NCBI GenBank assembly: GCA_965221305.1
Contig: OZ244881.1
Location: 3,670,091 to 3,734,090, forward strand
Source: Vicinamibacterales bacterium
GTDB lineage: Bacteria; Acidobacteriota; Vicinamibacteria; Vicinamibacterales; UBA8438
DNA length: 64,000 nt
Direction: 5' to 3'
Below the pieces are notes generated by a model. It did no database searches, had not been told where the DNA came from, and saw only the letters and a program-made list of their open reading frames with translations. This document shows, in pieces, positions 8,703-61,958 of the stretch (position 1 is its first letter; each line of letters opens with the position of its first letter). The position numbers and the translations under genes are program-made.

Positions 8703-9950
8703 ATGAAGGGCAGCAGTCTCGCGAAGATGGCTTGGCGCAACCTGTGGCGGAACCGCCGCCGCACCGTCATCACCCTCTCGGCCATCGTCTTCGGCGTCTT
8801 CCTCGCCGTCTTGATGATGGCGATGCAGGACCGGAACTGGGCCGACATGATCCGGCTCGCGGCCCGGCTCGGTGCGGGTCACGTGACGTACCAGCACCCG
8901 GAGTACCTCGACAGCCCGACCCTGTCGCGCCCCGTCGAGGGGACCGACGAGCTGAAGCGCCTCGCCGAGGGCAACCCGCGGGTCATCCGGGTCGTCGAGC
9001 GCATCACCGGGTTCAACATGCTGTCGACGGCGCGCGAGAACGTCGGCGCCGGCTTCATCGCCGTCTCGCCCGAGGACGAGGACGAGGAGACCCTGTCGCT
9101 CCTCGAGGCGGTGGTCGAGGGCGAGTTCTTCGCATCTTCCCATGACCGCGGCATCATCCTCGGCGAGAGGCTCGCCTCGAACCTGGACGTCGAGCTCGGG
9201 TCGAGGGTGGTCTACACCCTCACCGACAGGGAGGGCGAGATCGTGAGCGACCTCGCCCGGGTCAGCGGCATCATCCGCACCGGCTCCCCGAGCGTCGACG
9301 GGAGCATCTGCCTGCTGCCCATCGGCGCCCTGCGCGAGACCATCGGCTTCGCGCCCGACGAGGCCATCCAGGTCGCGGTGTTCGTCGACGATCAGCGGGT
9401 CACCGACGGCGTCGTCGCCGACCTCGCGGCGGGGGCCCCCGCCGGCGTCGCGGTGCTGCCGTGGCACGAGCTACAGCCGGATCTGGCGGTGTTCATCGCC
9501 ATGAAGGTCGGCGGCGCGAAGGTCATGATGCTGTTGCTCGCAGTGCTCGTGGCCGCCGGCATCTTCAACACCCTCTTCGTCAGCGTGATGGAGCGCCTGC
9601 GCGAGTTCGGCATCATGCTCGCGGTCGGCTTCAGCCCATCGCAGCTCTTCCGGCTCGTGATGATGGAGAGCGCGTGGCTGGCCGTCGTCGGTCTCGCCGG
9701 AGCCGCTCTCGTCAGCCTCGGGCCGTACCTCTATCTCGCCTCGACCGGCATCGACGTGTCGGGCCTGATCCCGGCCGAGCAGATGGAGGTCGCCGGTGTC
9801 GGCATGTCGACCGTCATGCAGGTCGGCATCTACGGCGAGAGCGTGGCCCTCATCGGTTTCTCGGCCCTCGCCGCCATCATGCTGTCGGGGGTCTATCCGG
9901 CGTGGCGGGCGGGGCACGCCGACCCGGTGGAGACGATTCGGCTGGTCTAG
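8703..9950 (+). CDS. ABC transporter permease, FtsX/LolC-LolE-like (second of two)
   Basis: 415 aa from ATG 8703 (MKGSSLAKMAWRNLWRNRRRTVITLSAIVFG). ERLREFGIMLAVG motif and C-terminal YPAWRAGHADPVETIRLV. The track ORF start at 8466 is upstream read-through. Confidence 0.85.
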   Translation: MKGSSLAKMAWRNLWRNRRRTVITLSAIVFGVFLAVLMMAMQDRNWADMIRLAARLGAGHVTYQHPEYLDSPTLSRPVEGTDELKRLAEGNPRVIRVVERITGFNMLSTARENVGAGFIAVSPEDEDEETLSLLEAVVEGEFFASSHDRGIILGERLASNLDVELGSRVVYTLTDREGEIVSDLARVSGIIRTGSPSVDGSICLLPIGALRETIGFAPDEAIQVAVFVDDQRVTDGVVADLAAGAPAGVAVLPWHELQPDLAVFIAMKVGGAKVMMLLLAVLVAAGIFNTLFVSVMERLREFGIMLAVGFSPSQLFRLVMMESAWLAVVGLAGAALVSLGPYLYLASTGIDVSGLIPAEQMEVAGVGMSTVMQVGIYGESVALIGFSALAAIMLSGVYPAWRAGHADPVETIRLV

Positions 9951-10260
9951 GTCCAGGCCTCTGCCCCAGGGCCGCTGGAGCGGACCGCAGGGGGAACATG
10001 CTGTCAGGGGTCTATCCGGCGTGGCGGGCGGGGCACGCCGACCCGGTGGAGACGATTCGGCTGGTCTAGGCCTCTGCCCCGGGCCGCTGGAGCGGACCGC
10101 CGGGGCGGGGCACGCCGACCCGGTGGAGACGATTCGGCTGGTCTAGGCCTCTGCTACGGGCCGCTGGAGCGGACCGCCGGGGCGGGGCACGCCGACCCGG
10201 TGGAGACGATTCGGCTGGTCTAGGCCTCTGCCCCGGGCCGCTGGAGCGGACCGCCGGGGG
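9879..10260 (+). repeat. Four-unit tandem array made of the permease 3' coding end, its stop codon and a downstream GC hairpin
   Basis: Units are 9879-9997 (119 bp), 9998-10106 (109 bp), 10107-10183 (77 bp) and 10184-10260 (77 bp). ggggcacgccgacccggtggagacgattcggctggtctag is present four times, with stops at 9948, 10067, 10144 and 10221. Each unit ends in gccccgg...ccggggc with an inner ccgct/agcgg pairing. Confidence 0.9.
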
Positions 10261-19727: not shown

Positions 19728-19771
19728 CTAATCCAGCTCGGCGAGCTCCCTAATCCAGCTCGGCGAGCTCC
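19728..19771. repeat. Perfect 22-bp tandem duplication spanning the M14 peptidase stop codon
   Basis: ctaatccagctcggcgagctcc occurs at 19728-19749 and again at 19750-19771. The second copy encodes ...ELAELD-stop of the minus-strand gene. Confidence 0.9.
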
Positions 19772-34899: not shown

Positions 34900-36033
34900 G
34901 TGAACGACCCGGTCCTGGCGCTGTTGCGCGACCTGGTGGCCATCGACTCGGTCAACCCGACGCTGGCGCCGGGCGGCGCCGGCGAGGCGGCCATCGCCGA
35001 GTTCGCGGCCGCGGTGATGCGGCGGGCCGGGCTCGACGTGGCGGTGGCCGAGGCCGCGCCCGGCCGGCCGAACGTCGTCGGGGTGGTGGAGGGCCGGTCG
35101 CCGGGGCGCACGTTGATGCTCTGCGGGCACCTCGACACCGTCGGCGTCGAGGGGATGCGCGATCCGTTCACGCCGGTCGTGCGCGACGGGCGTCTCTACG
35201 GCCGCGGCGCGCAGGACATGAAGAGCGGCGTCGCGGCGATGATCGACGCGGCGGCTCGGATCGCCTTCCGCGGAGGGCTGCCGTCGGGCCGGCTGGTGAT
35301 TGCCGCGGTCGCCGACGAGGAGCACGCGAGTCTGGGCGCCGACGCCCTCGTGCGCGACCACGCCGCCGACGGGGCGGTGGTGACGGAGCCGACGGACCTC
35401 TGCATGGCGACGTGCCACAAGGGGTTCGAGTGGGTCGAGGTCGAGACGCGCGGCCGGGCCGCCCACGGCAGCCGCCCCGCCGACGGACGGGACGCGATTC
35501 TTCGCATGGGCCGGTTTCTCGCCCGCCTCGAAGACGCCGATGCCCGCTTGGCGGCGAGGCCGCACCCCCTGCTGGGGCCGGCCTCGCTCCACGCCTCGAC
35601 CATCGAAGGGGGGCGCGAGCTCAGCGTCTACCCCGACCGGTGCCGCCTGTCGTTCGAGCGCCGGACCCTGCTCGGAGAGCCGCCCGACGCCGGCCTCGCC
35701 GAGGCGCGGGCCATCCTGGACGCGCTGGCGCGGGACGACTCCGAGTTCGAGGGCTTCGCCCGGCCGATGTTCACGCGTCCCCCGCACGAGCTGCCCGCCG
35801 ACCACCCCCTGTGCCGGGCGCTGGCCCGGGTGCTGGAACGGCGGGGCGAGTCGCCCGAGCCCACCGGCATGTCGTTCTGGACCGATGCCGCGATCCTGGC
35901 CCGGGCTGGGACCCCGGCGGTGCTGTTCGGACCCCGCGGCGCCGGCCTGCACAGCCGCGAGGAGCACGTCGAGATCGACTCCGTGCTCACGTGTCGCGAC
36001 GTCCTGGTCGACCTCGCCCGCGACTTCTGCTGA
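34900..36033 (+). CDS. M20-family metallohydrolase (ArgE/DapE-like deacylase)
   Basis: 377 aa, GTG start. Motifs LMLCGHLDTV, GRGAQDMKSG, ADEEHAS. Dimerisation-domain insert. Confidence 0.85.
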   Translation: MNDPVLALLRDLVAIDSVNPTLAPGGAGEAAIAEFAAAVMRRAGLDVAVAEAAPGRPNVVGVVEGRSPGRTLMLCGHLDTVGVEGMRDPFTPVVRDGRLYGRGAQDMKSGVAAMIDAAARIAFRGGLPSGRLVIAAVADEEHASLGADALVRDHAADGAVVTEPTDLCMATCHKGFEWVEVETRGRAAHGSRPADGRDAILRMGRFLARLEDADARLAARPHPLLGPASLHASTIEGGRELSVYPDRCRLSFERRTLLGEPPDAGLAEARAILDALARDDSEFEGFARPMFTRPPHELPADHPLCRALARVLERRGESPEPTGMSFWTDAAILARAGTPAVLFGPRGAGLHSREEHVEIDSVLTCRDVLVDLARDFC

Positions 36034-36125
36034 CGGCGTCGGGGGCGATTCCGCCGGGTTCGCGCGTCGCTCCCGGCGGTGACACCGGCGCCGCCGCGCG
36101 CCGTTGCCGGCATGCGCTGCGGGCC

Positions 36126-36505
36126 GTCCGACGGCGATGACGCCCGATGCGTCAGCCGGGAGCCGCCGCGGTCCTGCTGCAGGTGCGGGCGTGGTCGGGA
36201 GGATGTGGCGGTTCCGCACGCGGCAGCGGTCGCCGTCCGCCGGCGATGACGTCCGATGCGTCAGCCGGGAGCCGCCGCGGTCCTGCTGCGGGTGGTCGAG
36301 GGTGCGGGCGTGGTAGGCGGAGGACGTGGCGGTTCCGGACGCGGCAGCGGTCGCCGTCCGACGGCGATGACGTCCAATCCAATCTAATGCGTCAGCCGGG
36401 AGCCGCCGCGGTCCTGCAGCAGGTGGTCGAGGGTGCGGGCGTAGTAGCGGAGGATGTGGCGGTTCCGGACGCGGTAGCGGTCGCCGTCGACGGCGATGAC
36501 GCCCC
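36126..36505. repeat. Tandem array of degenerate copies of the acyltransferase 3' end (three units plus a partial fourth)
   Basis: atgcgtcagccgggagccgccgcggtcctgc starts at 36147, 36256 and 36387; the last is the real gene end (...SRLTH-stop). Periods are 109 and 131 bp. Each unit ends gtcc/gtcg-(a/c)cggcgatgacg. A partial unit lies at 36126-36146. Copies carry substitutions and indels. Unit B ends in tccaatccaatctaa. Confidence 0.9.
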
Positions 36506-37511
36506 GAGTGACGAGGGGCTCGGTGGCCTGGTCGAGGGCGTCGCGCCCGCACTCGACGGCGAGATTGGCGGGAACGAGGCGGAGGGCGTCGAGCAGCTCG
36601 TCGATGCGTCCTTCGAGATCTCGCCGCCGCGTGGACGGCCGGAGGGCGGCGGCCACTAGGGCGGTGGGCAGCACCTTGTAGAGCCGGCCGATGGCCTCGC
36701 GGGTGCGGCGGGTCAAGGCCACGAGATCGCGGCGCGAGTCGGGGTCGATGGTCGTCAGCGGTATCGGTTGCCCGAAGGTGACGAACGCGCGCGTCCGGTA
36801 GCCCACCGCGAAGTTCACCATCTCGGCCACTTCCGTCGTGAAGAGACGCTGGCGCCGCTTGACCCGCTGGCGGGAGAGAGTCTGGTCCTCTAGCACGAGG
36901 TCGTAGGCGATTCCCACCGGCACGATCGCCGCGTCCGGCCGCCGGGCCTGCAGGACCGCCTGCAGCAGCCCGGTTTTCAGCTTCTTGAACTCGCCGCTGT
37001 AGCTGCGCCCGCCCTCCGGGTAGAGGAACAAGTCGTGGCGGTGCACCAGCTCGGCCACGTACGCCCGCAGGGTCGCCAGGTACGCGGGGTCGCGGGAGTT
37101 CCGGCGAATCGGGATGGCGCCGGTGACATAGCGGTTCAACAGCCCCATGGCGCCGTTGAACAGGTTGATGCCGGCGGTGATGACGGGGGGCCGGATCTCG
37201 TGGTCGTCGAGCACCACGAGCTCGACGAGGTAGTCCATGTGGCTCTTGTGGTTCGAGGCGTAGACGACGCGGTGAGATCGGGCGGCGTCCTGCGCCCGCT
37301 CGACGTGCTCCGCGTGCCGCTGTATCTTGCGCAGTATCGGGTAGAGAGGGTGCTTCAGGGCGCGATACACCTGGTATCGCTGGGTCGTCCTGAGCTCCTT
37401 GAGGTAGGCGGCGATTCGTTCCTGCGCCTCATGGGGACTCAGCCTCGTGCTGCCGCGGAGATACCGCGCCACCTCCGCCCGGGACAGCACGGCCTGGGTG
37501 ATCTCGTCCAC
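36384..37511 (-). CDS. Glycerol-3-phosphate / lysophospholipid acyltransferase family protein (PlsB-like)
   Basis: About 375 aa from GTG 37511; the alternative ATG at 37658 would add an Arg-rich 49 aa. HX4D motif NHKSHMDY, block III YPEGGRSYSG, VPVGIAYD. Confidence 0.8.
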   Translation of the reverse strand: MDEITQAVLSRAEVARYLRGSTRLSPHEAQERIAAYLKELRTTQRYQVYRALKHPLYPILRKIQRHAEHVERAQDAARSHRVVYASNHKSHMDYLVELVVLDDHEIRPPVITAGINLFNGAMGLLNRYVTGAIPIRRNSRDPAYLATLRAYVAELVHRHDLFLYPEGGRSYSGEFKKLKTGLLQAVLQARRPDAAIVPVGIAYDLVLEDQTLSRQRVKRRQRLFTTEVAEMVNFAVGYRTRAFVTFGQPIPLTTIDPDSRRDLVALTRRTREAIGRLYKVLPTALVAAALRPSTRRRDLEGRIDELLDALRLVPANLAVECGRDALDQATEPLVTRGVIAVDGDRYRVRNRHILRYYARTLDHLLQDRGGSRLTH

Positions 37512-37684
37512 TCTCGAAACTATACCACCGGCCCGTCGGGTCGCCGGCCGCGCAGGCCCGCCAATCCGCTGCCTGCGACGCCGCCTGGCGCCCAACCGGC
37601 CTCCCGGAGTTCGCGCCGTTCTGCGGCGCAGACTCCCGCTCCGGAAGCGACCCGACATGGGCAGCTTTTCTCAGGGACGGTCAA

Positions 37685-38977
37685 CTAGCGTGGCGCCGTG
37701 ACGATCGCCGGACGGGTCAGGCGCACCGTCAGCCTCGATCCGGGCGGCAGCGTGGCCGGGTTGGCCTGCCCGTTCAGGGCCGCCGCGGTTCCGCCCGCGG
37801 CCCCGATCGAGCCGCCGATGGCGGCGCCGCGCTCACCGCCGAAGATGGCCCCCAGGATGGAACCGGCCACCGCCGCGCCGCCGATCTTCGCGACGCTGTC
37901 GCCGCCTGGGGACTCGCCCTCCCGGTAGATCGTCTCGGTGGACAGCGTCATCTCGGTCCCGTCGTCCATCAGCAGCGTATGGAAGCGGACCCCGAGCCGG
38001 GAGGCGGAGCGGAGCCGGCCGCCCGTCTCGACGAGGACCACCGATCCCCGCATCCGCGTACCCGAGGGAATGGCTACTCGCGAGGCGACAAGCACGTCGC
38101 GGATCACCCGGGCCTCGACAGGGTCCTCGACCCTCGCCGTGCCGGTGGACACGGCGGTGTCGATCTGGATGCCGATCACCGAGTCGGCGGCGATCTCCAG
38201 CTCGTCGAACGCGGGCCACGAGGGCGTTGCGACGCCGGGGCCGACGGTTCGCGCATCGAGGAGGCCGGCGCCGGTCGGCGGCCGAGGGTGCGGCTCGACC
38301 CGGGGCGGCGCCGCGGCCGCCGTCGCCCCGACCGACCCCGCGGCCCTCGAGTCCGCCGTCCTCGCGGGCCCGTCCGCCCGTACCCATCCATCCACGACGG
38401 GAAGATCGCCGCGGGTCGGGCGCGGCTCGGCGGCCGCCAGTCGGGGGTCGACCGGGGGGCTCGTTTCCGGCGCGGTGTCGGGCGCCCGCTCCGGTTCCGG
38501 TTCGGGCCTCGCGGGCGGCGTGAACGGGGCGGCGACGGGCCGGGGCCTTCGGTGCGGCTCCGCCTCGATGATCCTCTCCGCCGGCGCTGCCGCGCCGTCG
38601 CGGGTCGTGGAGGCCGTCGGCTCGGAGGCCGGGGGGGCGGAGGCCTCGCGCCGAGGCGCCGGGGGCGGCGGCTCACGCCGCCGCGGCTCCCGCGGCTCGG
38701 TCGGGGGCTTGGCTGCGGCCGGTTCGACCTCGACCTCCGTCCCGATCGCGGCCCGCGAGTTCTCGGGCGGCGCCTCTGCAGCGGGAGGCGGTTCGGCGGA
38801 CCCGATCGGGTCGGTGGACGCGACCGGCTCGGCGGACGCGACCGGCTCGGCCGCCGCGGCCGGGGCGGACTCGGGAGCGAGCTGGATGGCGTGCCGCACG
38901 GCGAGATAGGAACCGACACCGGCCGCGGCGACGGCGGCGATCGCGATACCTGCAGCGGCGGCTATCTGCTTCGACAT
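37685..38977 (-). CDS. Membrane-anchored Pro/Ala-rich protein with conserved C-terminal beta-rich domain and glycine-zipper tail
   Basis: 430 aa from ATG 38977, preceded by gaggaaagga. N-terminal TM helix (IAAAAGIAIAAVAAAGVGSYLAV). About 250 aa of P/A/E-rich low complexity. C-terminal IPSGTRMRGSVVLVE ... and GGAAVAGSILGAIFGGERGAAIGGSIGAAGG. Confidence 0.7.
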   Translation of the reverse strand: MSKQIAAAAGIAIAAVAAAGVGSYLAVRHAIQLAPESAPAAAAEPVASAEPVASTDPIGSAEPPPAAEAPPENSRAAIGTEVEVEPAAAKPPTEPREPRRREPPPPAPRREASAPPASEPTASTTRDGAAAPAERIIEAEPHRRPRPVAAPFTPPARPEPEPERAPDTAPETSPPVDPRLAAAEPRPTRGDLPVVDGWVRADGPARTADSRAAGSVGATAAAAPPRVEPHPRPPTGAGLLDARTVGPGVATPSWPAFDELEIAADSVIGIQIDTAVSTGTARVEDPVEARVIRDVLVASRVAIPSGTRMRGSVVLVETGGRLRSASRLGVRFHTLLMDDGTEMTLSTETIYREGESPGGDSVAKIGGAAVAGSILGAIFGGERGAAIGGSIGAAGGTAAALNGQANPATLPPGSRLTVRLTRPAIVTAPR

Positions 38978-39200
38978 CGGGGTCGTCCTTTCCTCTCGCG
39001 CATGATAAAGCAATTGTCATGCCCGGCCGCGTGTATTCGCGGCCCGAGGCCCCGCCGGCGATCCCGGCCCGGTGTCGTTATCGGCCGGTCGGCCGTTTTT
39101 CCAACCGCCCGCCTGTGCTCCCGGCGTGCGCCGGCGCCCATCGGGCGCGGTGCAACGCGGGGCTTCGCCACGGGCTCGTGGCGGTGGCCGTCATCGGGGG

Positions 39201-40634: not shown

Positions 40635-41438
40635 ATGGAACAGGTTCACTTCGTCACCCCGTCCCGCCGGTGGGCGGAGACCCTCCGGCCGGATGCCTGG
40701 TTGACGCAGCCCCTCGGCGTCTTCTTCGTGTTCACGACGTTCATCGTGTATTCCACTTGGGCGGCGTTCCAGGGCGAGTACTATCACTCGGGGCCGTATC
40801 TCTCGCCGTTCTATTCGCCCGAAATCTTCGGAGACTCGCCGCACAGCCTCCTGGGCCCGCGACCCGGCTGGTGGCCGAGCCCGGTGCCGTTCTCGCCCGC
40901 GTTCCTGATCCTGTGGGCGCCGGTCGGCTTCCGGCTGACCTGCTACTACTATCGCGGCGCCTACTACAAGGCGTTCTGGCACGACCCGCCGGCGTGCGGG
41001 GTGGGCGAGCCGCGCTCGAGCTACTGGGGCGAGAACTCGTTCCCGCTGATCGTGCAGAACCTGCACCGCTACTTCCTCATCTTCGCGCTGGCGCTCCTGG
41101 TGTTCCTGAGCATCGACGTCTGGAACGCGCTGTGGTTCGAGGATCCGGCGACCGGCGCCGTTTCGTTCGGCGTCGGGGTCGGGACGCTCGTCCTCGCGAT
41201 CAACGTCGTCCTGCTGGGCGGTTACACGCTGGGCTGCCACTCGTTGCGCCATCTCGTCGGGGGCGGGCGCGACCTCATCGCCGGGCTGCCGATCCGCCGG
41301 CCGACCTACGACTGCGTGAGCTGCCTGAACCGCCGGCACATGCTCTTCGCCTGGATGAGCCTGGTCTGGGTCGGGTTCTCCGACATCTACGTCCGACTGT
41401 GCGCGATGGGCATCGTTACGGATCTCCGACTCCTGTAG
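40635..41438 (+). CDS. sdhC: Succinate dehydrogenase / fumarate reductase membrane anchor (single-subunit cytochrome b type)
   Basis: 267 aa polytopic protein directly upstream of sdhA and sdhB. Conserved His residues in TM helices (YYHSGPY, NLHRYF, GCHSLRH). Gene order C-A-B as in B. subtilis-type SQR. Confidence 0.75.
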   Translation: MEQVHFVTPSRRWAETLRPDAWLTQPLGVFFVFTTFIVYSTWAAFQGEYYHSGPYLSPFYSPEIFGDSPHSLLGPRPGWWPSPVPFSPAFLILWAPVGFRLTCYYYRGAYYKAFWHDPPACGVGEPRSSYWGENSFPLIVQNLHRYFLIFALALLVFLSIDVWNALWFEDPATGAVSFGVGVGTLVLAINVVLLGGYTLGCHSLRHLVGGGRDLIAGLPIRRPTYDCVSCLNRRHMLFAWMSLVWVGFSDIYVRLCAMGIVTDLRLL

Positions 41439-41467
41439 CAGCCCGGTGACTCCTGTAGCAGCCCAGT
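41428..41467. repeat. 20-bp tandem duplication spanning the sdhC stop codon
   Basis: gactcctgtagcagcccggt (41428-41447, contains the sdhC TAG) is followed directly by gactcctgtagcagcccagt (41448-41467). One mismatch. Confidence 0.9.
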
Positions 41468-41699
41468 GGCGAATCCGTGCGTTGCATGGCGCCCGCAGGG
41501 CGCCAGCGGATCGGCGAGGCGGGATGCGTCACCGCCCGGATGCCGCCGAGACTTCCCCACGGGCGGCCGGGGCGCGACCGCCGCGCCCGTCTGTTTCTCC
41601 GCGAGAAGGGCGGGCGCGGCCGACCGCGGCGCCGTCGGGCGATGGACCACTGGCCGACCGCGGCGCTGCCGGGTCGCCATTAGATGAAGATTGCCGTCA

Positions 41700-61900: not shown

Positions 61901-61958
61901 CACGGTCGGCGGGGCCGTTCCCGGCCCGCCGAACGTCGTCGTCGTCGGCTACGCTTGG

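What the first reader, a model, noticed from the sequence alone, without database searches (positions are those of the whole stretch)
36126..36505. Acyltransferase 3' end repeated three-plus times as decaying pseudo-copies between convergent genes
The final ~40 codons of the PlsB-like gene (minus strand, stop at 36384-36386) recur downstream. Units start at 36256 and 36147 (periods 131 and 109 bp), and a partial unit lies at 36126-36146.

All units keep atgcgtcagccgggagccgccgcggtcctgc and ...cggcgatgacg. They differ by A/G and T/C substitutions and 1-nt indels, so the copies are out of frame. Unit B has acquired a 5-bp micro-repeat (tccaa tccaa tctaa) at the junction with the real gene.

The graded divergence suggests successive, not simultaneous, duplications at one site.
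Basis: seen in the sequence. Interest (0 to 1): 0.6.

Follow-up and report, generated by a model that had tools for sequence, protein, structure and literature searches.

The report
Decaying tandem copies of gene tail
The last 40 codons of a lipid acyltransferase gene have been copied head-to-tail into the spacer behind the gene and are decaying there as non-coding DNA, which is an ordinary mutational relic, although this bacterium and its close relatives carry unusually many of them.

Summary
Tandem Repeats Finder reports an array at 36123-36501 (3.2 copies, 85% matches). It consists of the real 3' end of a PF01553 acyltransferase gene (minus strand, stop 36384-36386), two full pseudo-copies (B 36256-36376, C 36147-36255) and a 24-nt stub (D 36123-36146).

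All orthologues end ...GGSRLTH*, so the gene is intact. None of 47 related loci carries a second tail copy, although the acyltransferase/M20-peptidase synteny is conserved and the spacer varies from about 36 to 2234 nt.

Against 21 orthologous tails, every difference is derived in the copies. The copies also share this lineage's own states. The duplication therefore postdates the split from all sampled relatives, and the duplications were nested: (A,(D,(B,C))).

I found no RNA family, terminator, exceptional fold, Pfam domain, reverse transcriptase, integrase or dispersed copies.

Best explanation: neutral relics of successive short tandem duplications. Four more stop-codon-spanning tandem duplications lie in the same 64 kb. 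Long-period arrays run at about 17 per 100 kb here and in close Vicinamibacterales relatives, against about 1 in distant ones.

This is a new member of a known kind, of low to moderate interest.

The parts
36387..36506 (-). Unit A: the real last 40 codons of the acyltransferase gene (…TRGVIAVDGDRYRVRNRHILRYYARTLDHLLQDRGGSRLTH). It is the source of the copies.
   Evidence: Translation. All close orthologues end in the same …GGSRLTH*. The segment is 95-97.5% identical to the tails of the closest orthologues. It shows no derived change relative to the copies.
36377..36386 (-). A/B junction, TAGATTGGAT on the gene strand. It holds the stop codon TAG (36384-36386) and 7 further nt. Together with the first 4 nt of B it forms the micro-repeat ATTGG-ATTGG-A. 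These 10 nt are absent from the B/C and C/D junctions.
   Evidence: Sequence. Alignment of units.
36256..36376 (-). Pseudo-copy B, 121 nt, 93% identical to A. It carries +G, +C and 6 substitutions, and its frame is broken.
36147..36255 (-). Pseudo-copy C, 109 nt, 84% identical to A. It carries +G, a 10-nt deletion, a 1-nt deletion, four substitutions shared with B and three private ones.
36123..36146 (-). Stub D: the first 24 nt of a unit (CGGGCGTCATCGCCGTCGGACGGC). It shares the +G with B and C and keeps the gene's CGGG.
   Evidence: The sequence beyond it is not significantly similar to the unit (19% of 500 shuffles scored at least as high).
36034..36122 (.). Native spacer remnant next to the M20 stop codon (36031-36033). 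Its M20-proximal ~60 nt form a G+C-rich hairpin and are shared with relative L001, which has no array.
   Evidence: Spacer comparison. The hairpin appears in the fold.
36384..37511 (-). Acyltransferase gene (375 aa from MDEITQ…; PF01553 domain), intact.
   Evidence: P0001 is 100% identical over 375 aa.
34900..36033 (+). Convergent M20-family peptidase gene. The gene pair is syntenic in 23 related genome loci.

Best explanation
The array is a non-functional fossil of successive short tandem duplications at the 3' end of the acyltransferase gene.

Proposed history (inferred):
1. A segment of about 120-130 nt was duplicated head-to-tail. It started inside the gene at …ACT|CGGGGCGTCATC… and most probably ran through the stop codon into a few nt of 3' flank.
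2. The upstream copy stays joined to the rest of the gene and keeps its own stop, so the enzyme is unchanged. The downstream copy is a promoterless, 5'-truncated pseudo-copy in the 3' untranslated spacer.
3. That pseudo-copy picked up a +G insertion and was duplicated again, giving D and the ancestor of B and C.
4. The B/C ancestor picked up four substitutions and was duplicated once more, probably by unequal exchange between the existing copies.
5. B and C then diverged by private substitutions and small indels. D was truncated by a deletion.

The copies have drifted without coding constraint and toward higher G+C.

The array survives because a spacer between two convergent genes holds no promoter and tolerates extra DNA. 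The same spacer is hypervariable in relatives.

Shown: existence, uniqueness to this lineage, polarity of the changes, nesting, intact gene, and no detected functional signal. Inferred: the molecular mechanism (slippage or microhomology-mediated duplication followed by unequal recombination) and neutrality.
For: - Array and unit statistics.
- Gene intact with the ancestral C-terminus: all close orthologues end …GGSRLTH*.
- Uniqueness: the tail occurs once per locus in 28 genome loci. Local alignment of each tail against its own downstream DNA is at background in 21 syntenic loci, in 23 further loci and in L064, the locus of the closest protein relative (P0002). The window scores 196 against a null maximum of 31.
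- Synteny and spacer: the M20 gene is conserved opposite the acyltransferase gene, while the spacer varies from about 36 to 2234 nt.
- Polarity and nesting: all variable columns are derived in the copies. B and C keep states found in A but in none (CAG Gln) or only a few (CAT, GCC) of the sampled orthologues. +G is shared by B, C and D. The first four bases form a series, CGGG (D), CGGA (C), TGGA (B).
- Age: 4-fold-site divergence to the nearest relatives is 0.17-0.23 for this gene. Root-to-tip change in the copies is about 0.06-0.07.
- No coding constraint: 6 of 7 frame-assignable substitutions are non-synonymous, and indels break the frame.
- No function signal: no Rfam family, no promoter or terminator match, fold z-scores +0.40 and +0.26, and no Pfam hit for ORFs in the array.
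- Precedent in the same genome: four more tandem duplications contain a gene's stop codon, at 9878-10259, 19728-19771, 25334-25528 and 41428-41468. Relative L005 has another. The FtsX array shows the same two-step nesting (119-nt unit, then a 77-nt sub-unit).
Against: - The B/C and C/D junctions lack the 10 nt (stop included) present at the A/B junction. A duplication that included the stop therefore needs an extra precise 10-nt loss. Alternatively, the first duplication excluded the stop (see rival 1).
- No clear microhomology is visible at the unit boundaries.
- Raw reads were not available, so copy number is not independently validated.
- No strain of the same species was found, so polymorphism of the array is unknown.
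- Neutrality is inferred from absence of signals, not tested. No transcript data were available.
Confidence: 0.82

Rival explanations
1. Same tandem-duplication origin but a different history. The first duplication covered exactly CGGG…CAT (119 nt) and excluded the stop. The gene was then transiently read through into a repeated or frameshifted C-terminal extension. A later 10-nt insertion (TAGATTGGAT) restored termination at the ancestral position and orphaned the copies.
For: Two of the three junctions are CAT|CGGR with no stop. The +G shared by B, C and D makes the unit exactly 120 nt (40 codons) and brings …DGDRCRVRNRHIL… back into frame with the preceding …LTH (frame 2). The micro-repeat at the A/B junction looks like a local insertion.
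Against: It requires a period with an aberrant C-terminus on a highly conserved protein. It also requires a fortuitous stop-bearing insertion of unexplained origin. All four other arrays in the window include the stop inside the unit. A frame-restoring indel has a 1 in 3 chance expectation. Substitutions in the copies are almost all non-synonymous, so there is no sign they were ever under coding constraint.
Confidence: 0.13
2. Assembly artefact: a single-copy locus wrongly expanded by the assembler or polisher of a metagenome-assembled genome, or strain variants stitched in tandem.
For: The source is evidently a MAG. The exact protein is a singleton, held by NCBI and ENA. The junction was not found in JGI metagenome contigs. 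No reads could be examined.
Against: The copies differ from one another by 7-16%, with nested shared changes and frame-breaking indels that no orthologue has. An assembler cannot invent this from one copy. Strain alleles of a conserved coding tail would stay in frame. The copies carry this lineage's own derived states. Similar arrays occur in independent assemblies of relatives, including short-read MAGs L007 and L010.
Confidence: 0.03
3. A functional element: a stock of silent 3' cassettes for recombinational variation of the C-terminus, a diversity-generating retroelement template/variable repeat pair, att-site scars of an integrative element, or a structured 3' UTR or terminator.
For: Partial promoterless 3' copies next to an expressed gene resemble silent cassettes and TR/VR pairs. 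The spacer behind this gene is a hot spot of insertion in relatives.
Against: The gene tail is invariant relative to orthologues and shows no change since the duplication. Mismatches are not adenine-specific. Among the supported ORFs scanned within about ±8 kb, all with a Pfam match are housekeeping genes, with no reverse transcriptase, integrase or transposase hit. The copies are frame-broken. There is no Rfam hit, no terminator motif and no fold stability beyond shuffles. The array is absent from all relatives, so it is not conserved.
Confidence: 0.02

Closest known systems
Short (microhomology-mediated or slippage) tandem duplications, as characterised genome-wide in fission yeast (PMC8639346) and described as the source of close direct repeats in bacterial genomes (own knowledge: Achaz et al. 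2002)
   Same: Head-to-tail duplication of tens to ~130 nt. Re-duplication and unequal exchange give 3-4 copies. Events that break coding sequence are lost, so survivors sit in intergenic DNA or straddle gene ends.
   Different: No clear microhomology can be seen at the boundaries of this old array. The junctions are heterogeneous (10 extra nt at one). The copies are old enough to have decayed to 84-93% identity, whereas the events described in that paper are typically young and reversible.
Bacterial VNTR / MIRU-type intergenic minisatellites (own knowledge)
   Same: Units of 40-130 nt in tandem in short spacers at gene ends, sometimes containing stop codons of the upstream gene. Copy number changes by slippage or unequal recombination.
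   Different: MIRUs are a dispersed family present at many loci with a shared consensus. This unit is locus-specific, derived from the adjacent gene itself, and not found elsewhere.
DGR template/variable repeats and silent-cassette systems such as pilE/pilS (own knowledge)
   Same: A ~120-nt near-copy of a gene's 3' end lies close to the gene.
   Different: No reverse transcriptase was found. Mismatches are not adenine-specific. The gene tail is conserved rather than variable. The copies are frame-broken and restricted to this lineage.

Membership tests
Local tandem segmental duplication (gene-tail pseudo-copies) | Head-to-tail copies contiguous with the source sequence | tested here: met
   TRF array 36123-36501, 3.2 copies. 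Units abut with 4-14 nt junctions.
Local tandem segmental duplication (gene-tail pseudo-copies) | Copies derive from the adjacent gene of the same lineage, not from elsewhere | tested here: met
   B and C share A's CAG (Gln), found in none of the 21 orthologous tails, and A's CAT and GCC, found in only a few of them.
Local tandem segmental duplication (gene-tail pseudo-copies) | Absent at the orthologous site of relatives (derived insertion) | tested here: met
   There is one tail per locus in 28 genome loci, 18 metagenome loci and L064. The spacer in relatives is as short as 36-60 nt.
Local tandem segmental duplication (gene-tail pseudo-copies) | Microhomology at the duplication boundaries | tested here: inconclusive
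   At most 1 nt is shared at CACT|CGGGG versus GCAT|. The boundaries are blurred by later change. The younger 77-nt FtsX sub-unit shows a possible imperfect ~5-nt microhomology (GC…GGG).
Local tandem segmental duplication (gene-tail pseudo-copies) | Copy number confirmed in raw reads | not testable with these tools
   No read data were available. The exact proteins of the locus are not on record in the contig index.
Dispersed repeat family (REP / MITE / MIRU-like) | Same unit at multiple unlinked loci | tested here: not met
   The 31-mer matches only inside the array, allowing 3 mismatches. blastn of the unit hits only the array in the window and the gene tail in relatives. The rest of the source genome could not be searched.
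Diversity-generating retroelement (TR/VR) | Mismatches confined to adenines of the template repeat | tested here: not met
   The gene-versus-copy differences include A>G, T>C, T>A, T>G, C>G and G>A, plus indels.
Diversity-generating retroelement (TR/VR) | Reverse transcriptase gene nearby | tested here: not met
   Pfam scans of the supported ORFs tested within about ±8 kb find TRAP transporter components, an M20 peptidase, FAD oxidoreductases and succinate dehydrogenase. Two ORFs have no hit. No reverse transcriptase was found.
Integrative-element att-site duplication of a gene 3' end | Integrase and element DNA between the duplicated gene ends | tested here: not met
   The copies are directly adjacent (109-131 nt apart). 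The M20 gene follows immediately and synteny is conserved.
Rfam RNA family / intrinsic terminator | Match to a curated covariance model, or hairpin plus U-tract | tested here: not met
   No Rfam hits at gathering threshold over the whole window. No terminator-like sites in 35700-36800. Fold z-scores are +0.40 and +0.26.

The most novel reading that the evidence does not exclude
The array may be one visible product of a lineage-specific mutational regime. In this high-G+C Vicinamibacterales clade, short tandem duplications (20-130 nt) may arise, or be retained, roughly ten times more often than in distant relatives, and preferentially across gene 3' ends. In this window five arrays span a stop codon and none clearly spans a start.

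If that asymmetry reflects mechanism rather than survivorship, gene ends would be duplication hot spots. Possible causes include fork or transcription-termination conflicts, or break repair with fill-in. Such hot spots would supply a steady source of new C-termini and 3' UTR sequence.

The decaying copies would also serve as internal neutral clocks. Here they indicate GC-biased fixation with an implied equilibrium G+C of about 0.89.
Probability: 0.15. Interest if true: 0.5.

Novelty: new member of a known kind. Interest (0 to 1): 0.22.

Why it matters
On its own it matters little. The enzyme is intact and the copies look like junk DNA in a tolerant spacer.

It has three modest uses:
- It is a clean, datable example of how tandem duplications nest and decay in a bacterial genome.
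- Because the ancestral state of every site is known from the gene and its orthologues, the copies give a small polarised sample of unconstrained substitutions. Seven of 10 changes fall at A/T sites, which make up 27% of the unit, and the implied equilibrium G+C is about 0.89. This bears on why such genomes stay G+C-rich.
- Together with the four other stop-spanning duplications in the window, it flags this uncultured soil clade as worth a genome-wide census of short tandem duplications.

Tried and rejected
- Dispersed repeat or mobile element: the unit occurs only in the array, and I found no integrase or transposase nearby.
- DGR: the mismatches are not A-specific and no reverse transcriptase was found.
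- RNA element or terminator: no Rfam hit, no terminator motif, and fold energies no better than shuffles.
- Hidden ORFs on either strand of the array: no Pfam match even at E up to 1.
- Recurrent duplication at this same gene in relatives: I suspected it by eye in L006 and L007, but tail-versus-spacer alignments are at background. Those spacers instead hold unrelated repeats.
- Extension of stub D into the distal spacer: the best alignment is not significant (19% of 500 shuffles scored at least as high).
- Independent observation of the junction: an exact-pattern scan of JGI metagenome contigs found nothing. A protein-guided scan found only relatives of 92% identity or less.
- Recovering the source contig or an independent assembly by exact protein look-up failed for both flanking genes.
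- A G+C-rich plasmid control (NC_003903) was not in the collection.
- A literature search for tandem repeats in Vicinamibacterales returned nothing.

Full report
**1. The observation**

- Tandem Repeats Finder reports an array at 36123-36501 with period 131, 3.2 copies, 85% matches and 10% indels.
- The repeat finder gives three in-register copies with start-to-start spacings of 109 and 131 nt.
- The quoted 31-mer occurs three times in the window, all inside the array. None of 100 dinucleotide-preserving shuffles gave a match.
- blastn of the true gene tail hits copy B at 93.3% and copy C at 84.0%.

The gene is the minus-strand ORF 36384..37658, with TAG at 36384-36386. It carries a PF01553 acyltransferase domain. 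Comparison with database proteins puts the real start at MDEITQ…, giving 375 aa. The convergent plus-strand gene 34900..36033 is an M20-family peptidase.

**2. Anatomy, on the gene strand**

| Part | Window coordinates | Content |
|---|---|---|
| Unit A | 36506-36387 | CGGGG-CGTCATC…CTGACGCAT, the last 40 codons of the gene |
| A/B junction | 36386-36377 | TAGATTGGAT, including the stop |
| Copy B | 36376-36256 | TGGA-CGTCATC…CAT, 121 nt |
| Copy C | 36255-36147 | CGGA-CGTCATC…CAT, 109 nt |
| Stub D | 36146-36123 | CGGG-CGTCATCGCCGTCGGACGGC, 24 nt |
| Other spacer | 36122-36034 | 89 nt up to the M20 stop |

The stop and the ATTGG-ATTGG micro-repeat exist only at the A/B junction. B/C and C/D join CAT directly to CGGR. 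The 89-nt remainder is not significantly similar to the unit. Its M20-proximal ~60 nt form a G+C-rich hairpin shared with relative L001, which has no array.

**3. Organism and orthologues**

The closest proteins come from Vicinamibacterales (Acidobacteriota) metagenome-assembled genomes. The exact protein is a singleton cluster on a 4.43-Mb contig. All of the closest 14 orthologues examined end …RLTH or …KLTH and then stop, most of them …GGSRLTH. The present C-terminus is therefore ancestral and the gene is intact.

**4. Is the array shared?**

It is not.
- In 28 genome loci the tail occurs once, inside the gene.
- Local alignment of each gene tail against its own downstream DNA is at shuffle background in 21 syntenic genome loci, in 23 further loci and in L064, the locus of the closest protein relative (P0002). 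The window scores 196 against a null maximum of 31.
- The acyltransferase/M20 convergent pair is conserved in 23 related genome loci, while the spacer between the genes ranges from about 36 to 2234 nt and differs in content from genome to genome: a small ORF in L001 and L064, sequence that by eye looks like a PIN/VapC-type toxin gene in L003 (not tested), and unrelated tandem elements in L007 and L010.

The array is a derived insertion in a spacer that tolerates insertions.

**5. Polarity, nesting and age**

I aligned A, B, C and D with 21 orthologous tails. Every column where a copy differs from A has A equal to the orthologue consensus. All change has happened in the copies and none in the gene.

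B and C also carry states that A has and few or no sampled orthologues have: CAG (Gln) instead of CAC in all 21, and the final CAT and a GCC in most. The copies therefore derive from this lineage's own gene after it split from all sampled relatives.

The derived states are nested:
- a +G insertion (GTC-GAC to GTCGGAC) in B, C and D;
- CGGG (D), then CGGA (C), then TGGA (B) at the unit's first four bases;
- A>G, T>C and T>A shared by B and C only;
- private changes in B (A>G, T>C, +C) and in C (T>G, C>G, T>G, -1 nt, -10 nt).

The simplest tree is (A,(D,(B,C))). That means at least two further duplications of a pseudo-copy after the first, each separated by mutation.

Four-fold-site divergence to the nearest relatives is 0.17-0.23 in this gene and 0.18-0.28 in the M20 gene. 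Root-to-tip substitution in the copies is about 0.06-0.07. This is roughly consistent with a first duplication some way after that split. The estimate is rough because G+C at third codon positions (GC3) is near saturation.

**6. Function**

I found no evidence of function.
- No Rfam family reaches threshold anywhere in the window.
- No promoter-like or terminator-like site lies in 35700-36800.
- Folding either strand of the spacer is no better than shuffles, with z-scores +0.40 and +0.26.
- ORFs inside the array have no Pfam match at E up to 1.
- Six of seven frame-assignable substitutions are non-synonymous, and indels break the frame.
- The neighbours are housekeeping genes: TRAP transporter components, the M20 peptidase, an FAD oxidoreductase and succinate dehydrogenase. 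No reverse transcriptase, integrase or transposase was found.
- The mismatch pattern is not adenine-specific, which rules out a DGR template/variable pair.

**7. Mechanism and the junction puzzle**

A tandem duplication that starts inside a gene and ends beyond its stop leaves the upstream copy joined to the gene and harmless. This is the favoured model. It is exactly what the four other arrays in this window show (section 8).

The difficulty is that only the A/B junction carries the stop and its 7 flanking nt. Under the favoured model these 10 nt were lost once between pseudo-copies. The lost segment is flanked by AT…AT, and copy C shows that 10-nt deletions do happen here. That junction was then propagated by unequal exchange.

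The alternative is that the first duplication covered exactly CGGG…CAT. The stop would have been displaced to the end of the array, and a 10-nt stop-bearing insertion would later have restored termination. In its favour, the shared +G makes the unit exactly 120 nt and puts …DGDRCRVRNRHIL… back in frame after …LTH. That has a 1 in 3 chance expectation, and nothing suggests the copies were ever under coding constraint. I weight the two sub-models at roughly 6:1.

Boundary microhomology is not evident.

**8. Context found along the way**

TRF over the whole window shows four more tandem duplications whose unit contains the stop codon of a GC3-supported gene.

| Coordinates | Gene | Unit and copies |
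|---|---|---|
| 9878-10259 | FtsX/MacB-type permease, plus strand, stop 9948-9950 | A 119-nt unit, then a nested 77-nt sub-unit; four copies of …PVETIRLV* at 92-97% identity |
| 19728-19771 | M14-peptidase-like, minus strand | 22 nt × 2, identical, encoding …ELAELD* |
| 25334-25528 | GNAT-like, minus strand | 104 nt × 1.9, 77% identity |
| 41428-41468 | Plus-strand gene | 20 nt × 2 containing …LRLL* |

Relative L005 has a 75-nt × 3 array spanning the stop of yet another gene.

With identical TRF settings, arrays of period 20 nt or more occur at these densities:
- 17 per 100 kb in the window;
- 17.5 per 100 kb in the loci of close relatives;
- 0.9 in more distant Vicinamibacteria;
- 1.5 in loci from other phyla;
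- 4 in a 50-kb E. coli sample.

Two caveats apply. The relatives' loci are one orthologous region sampled many times. Very G+C-rich sequence may also inflate weak TRF hits.

Five of the window's 11 arrays span a stop, and none clearly spans a start. This could be survivorship, since such duplications are harmless, or it could reflect a real 3'-end bias. The numbers are too small to tell.

**9. A by-product**

Of 10 polarised substitution events in the copies, 7 fall at A/T sites, which make up 27% of the unit (Fisher p = 0.0036). Six are AT>GC and two are GC>AT. The implied equilibrium G+C is about 0.89, close to the third-codon-position G+C of genes in this window (0.87-0.96). The sample is small. 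It suggests that unconstrained DNA here drifts to very high G+C.

**10. Comparison with known things, and verdict**

The closest known kind is the short tandem duplication made by slippage or microhomology and expanded by unequal exchange. It is characterised genome-wide in fission yeast (PMC8639346). It is also long inferred as the origin of close direct repeats in bacteria (own knowledge).

The array resembles MIRU/VNTR minisatellites in size and position but is not a dispersed family. It is not a DGR, an att-site scar, a silent-cassette system or a known RNA.

The kind is ordinary, so this is a new member of a known kind. Interest is low to moderate, raised slightly by the recurrence of the same type of event in this clade. 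Read-level validation and a genome-wide census are the decisive missing steps.

Noticed in passing
window 9878-10259: The 3' end of an FtsX/MacB-type permease gene (plus strand, stop 9948-9950) is repeated four times with its stop codon and 3' flank. A 119-nt duplication came first, followed by a nested 77-nt sub-unit present three times, at 92-97% identity. It is a younger analogue of the finding.
   Followed up: partly
window 19728-19771, 25334-25528 and 41428-41468: Three more tandem duplications contain a gene's stop codon. They are 22 nt × 2 (identical; M14-peptidase-like gene, minus strand), 104 nt × 1.9 (77% identical; GNAT-like gene, minus strand) and 20 nt × 2 (plus-strand gene ending …LRLL*). 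That makes five stop-spanning arrays in 64 kb, and none clearly spans a start codon.
   Followed up: partly
window (whole) versus loci L001-L063: With identical TRF settings, tandem arrays of period 20 nt or more run at about 17 per 100 kb in the window and in close Vicinamibacterales relatives. The figures are about 1 per 100 kb in distant Vicinamibacteria and other phyla, and 4 per 100 kb in 50 kb of E. coli. The relatives' loci are one orthologous region, so this is not an independent genome-wide estimate.
   Followed up: partly
window 36123-36376 (copies B, C, D): Polarised substitutions in the pseudo-copies are strongly skewed. Seven of 10 fall at A/T sites, which are 27% of sites (Fisher p = 0.0036), and AT>GC outnumbers GC>AT six to two. 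The implied equilibrium G+C is about 0.89, similar to GC3 of genes here. This hints at GC-biased fixation in unconstrained DNA.
   Followed up: partly
L005 42-265: A relative genome (OZ220718.1) has a 75-nt unit repeated three times. The unit contains the last 13 codons, the stop and the 3' flank of a different gene (…LLAAVSPARFEAA*). The stop-spanning duplication habit is therefore clade-wide.
   Followed up: partly
L007 2017-2191; L012 5516-5693; L013 5422-5598; L020 2259 and 4265: Relatives carry an ~84-nt hairpin-containing element with the core GGGTTGGYTGGGCGSCRA. It is often in tandem pairs and sits in different spacers around the acyltransferase/M20 locus, so it looks like a small dispersed (MITE/REP-like) family. 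It has no exact match in the window (one 2-mismatch hit at 61955, near chance) and is unrelated to the finding's unit.
   Followed up: partly
window 36034-36095: A G+C-rich hairpin of about 13 bp lies directly after the M20 stop codon. It is conserved in sequence with relative L001 despite otherwise unrelated spacers. It pairs better on the M20 strand (G·U pairs). It may be a U-tract-less terminator shared by the convergent genes.
   Followed up: no
window 37685-39013 (minus strand): The gene upstream of the acyltransferase encodes a Pro/Ala-rich protein with no Pfam match. It has an internal 18-nt × 4.2 coding repeat (38789-38863). Only the C-terminal ~180-250 residues are conserved in relatives.
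   Followed up: no
L001 4126-4570 and L064 1575-1980: In two close relatives, the spacer that holds the array in the window instead contains a lower-G+C insert of about 400 nt with a small ORF (MRIREPGVLFNITRVDP…). This is another sign that the convergent spacer is an insertion hot spot.
   Followed up: no
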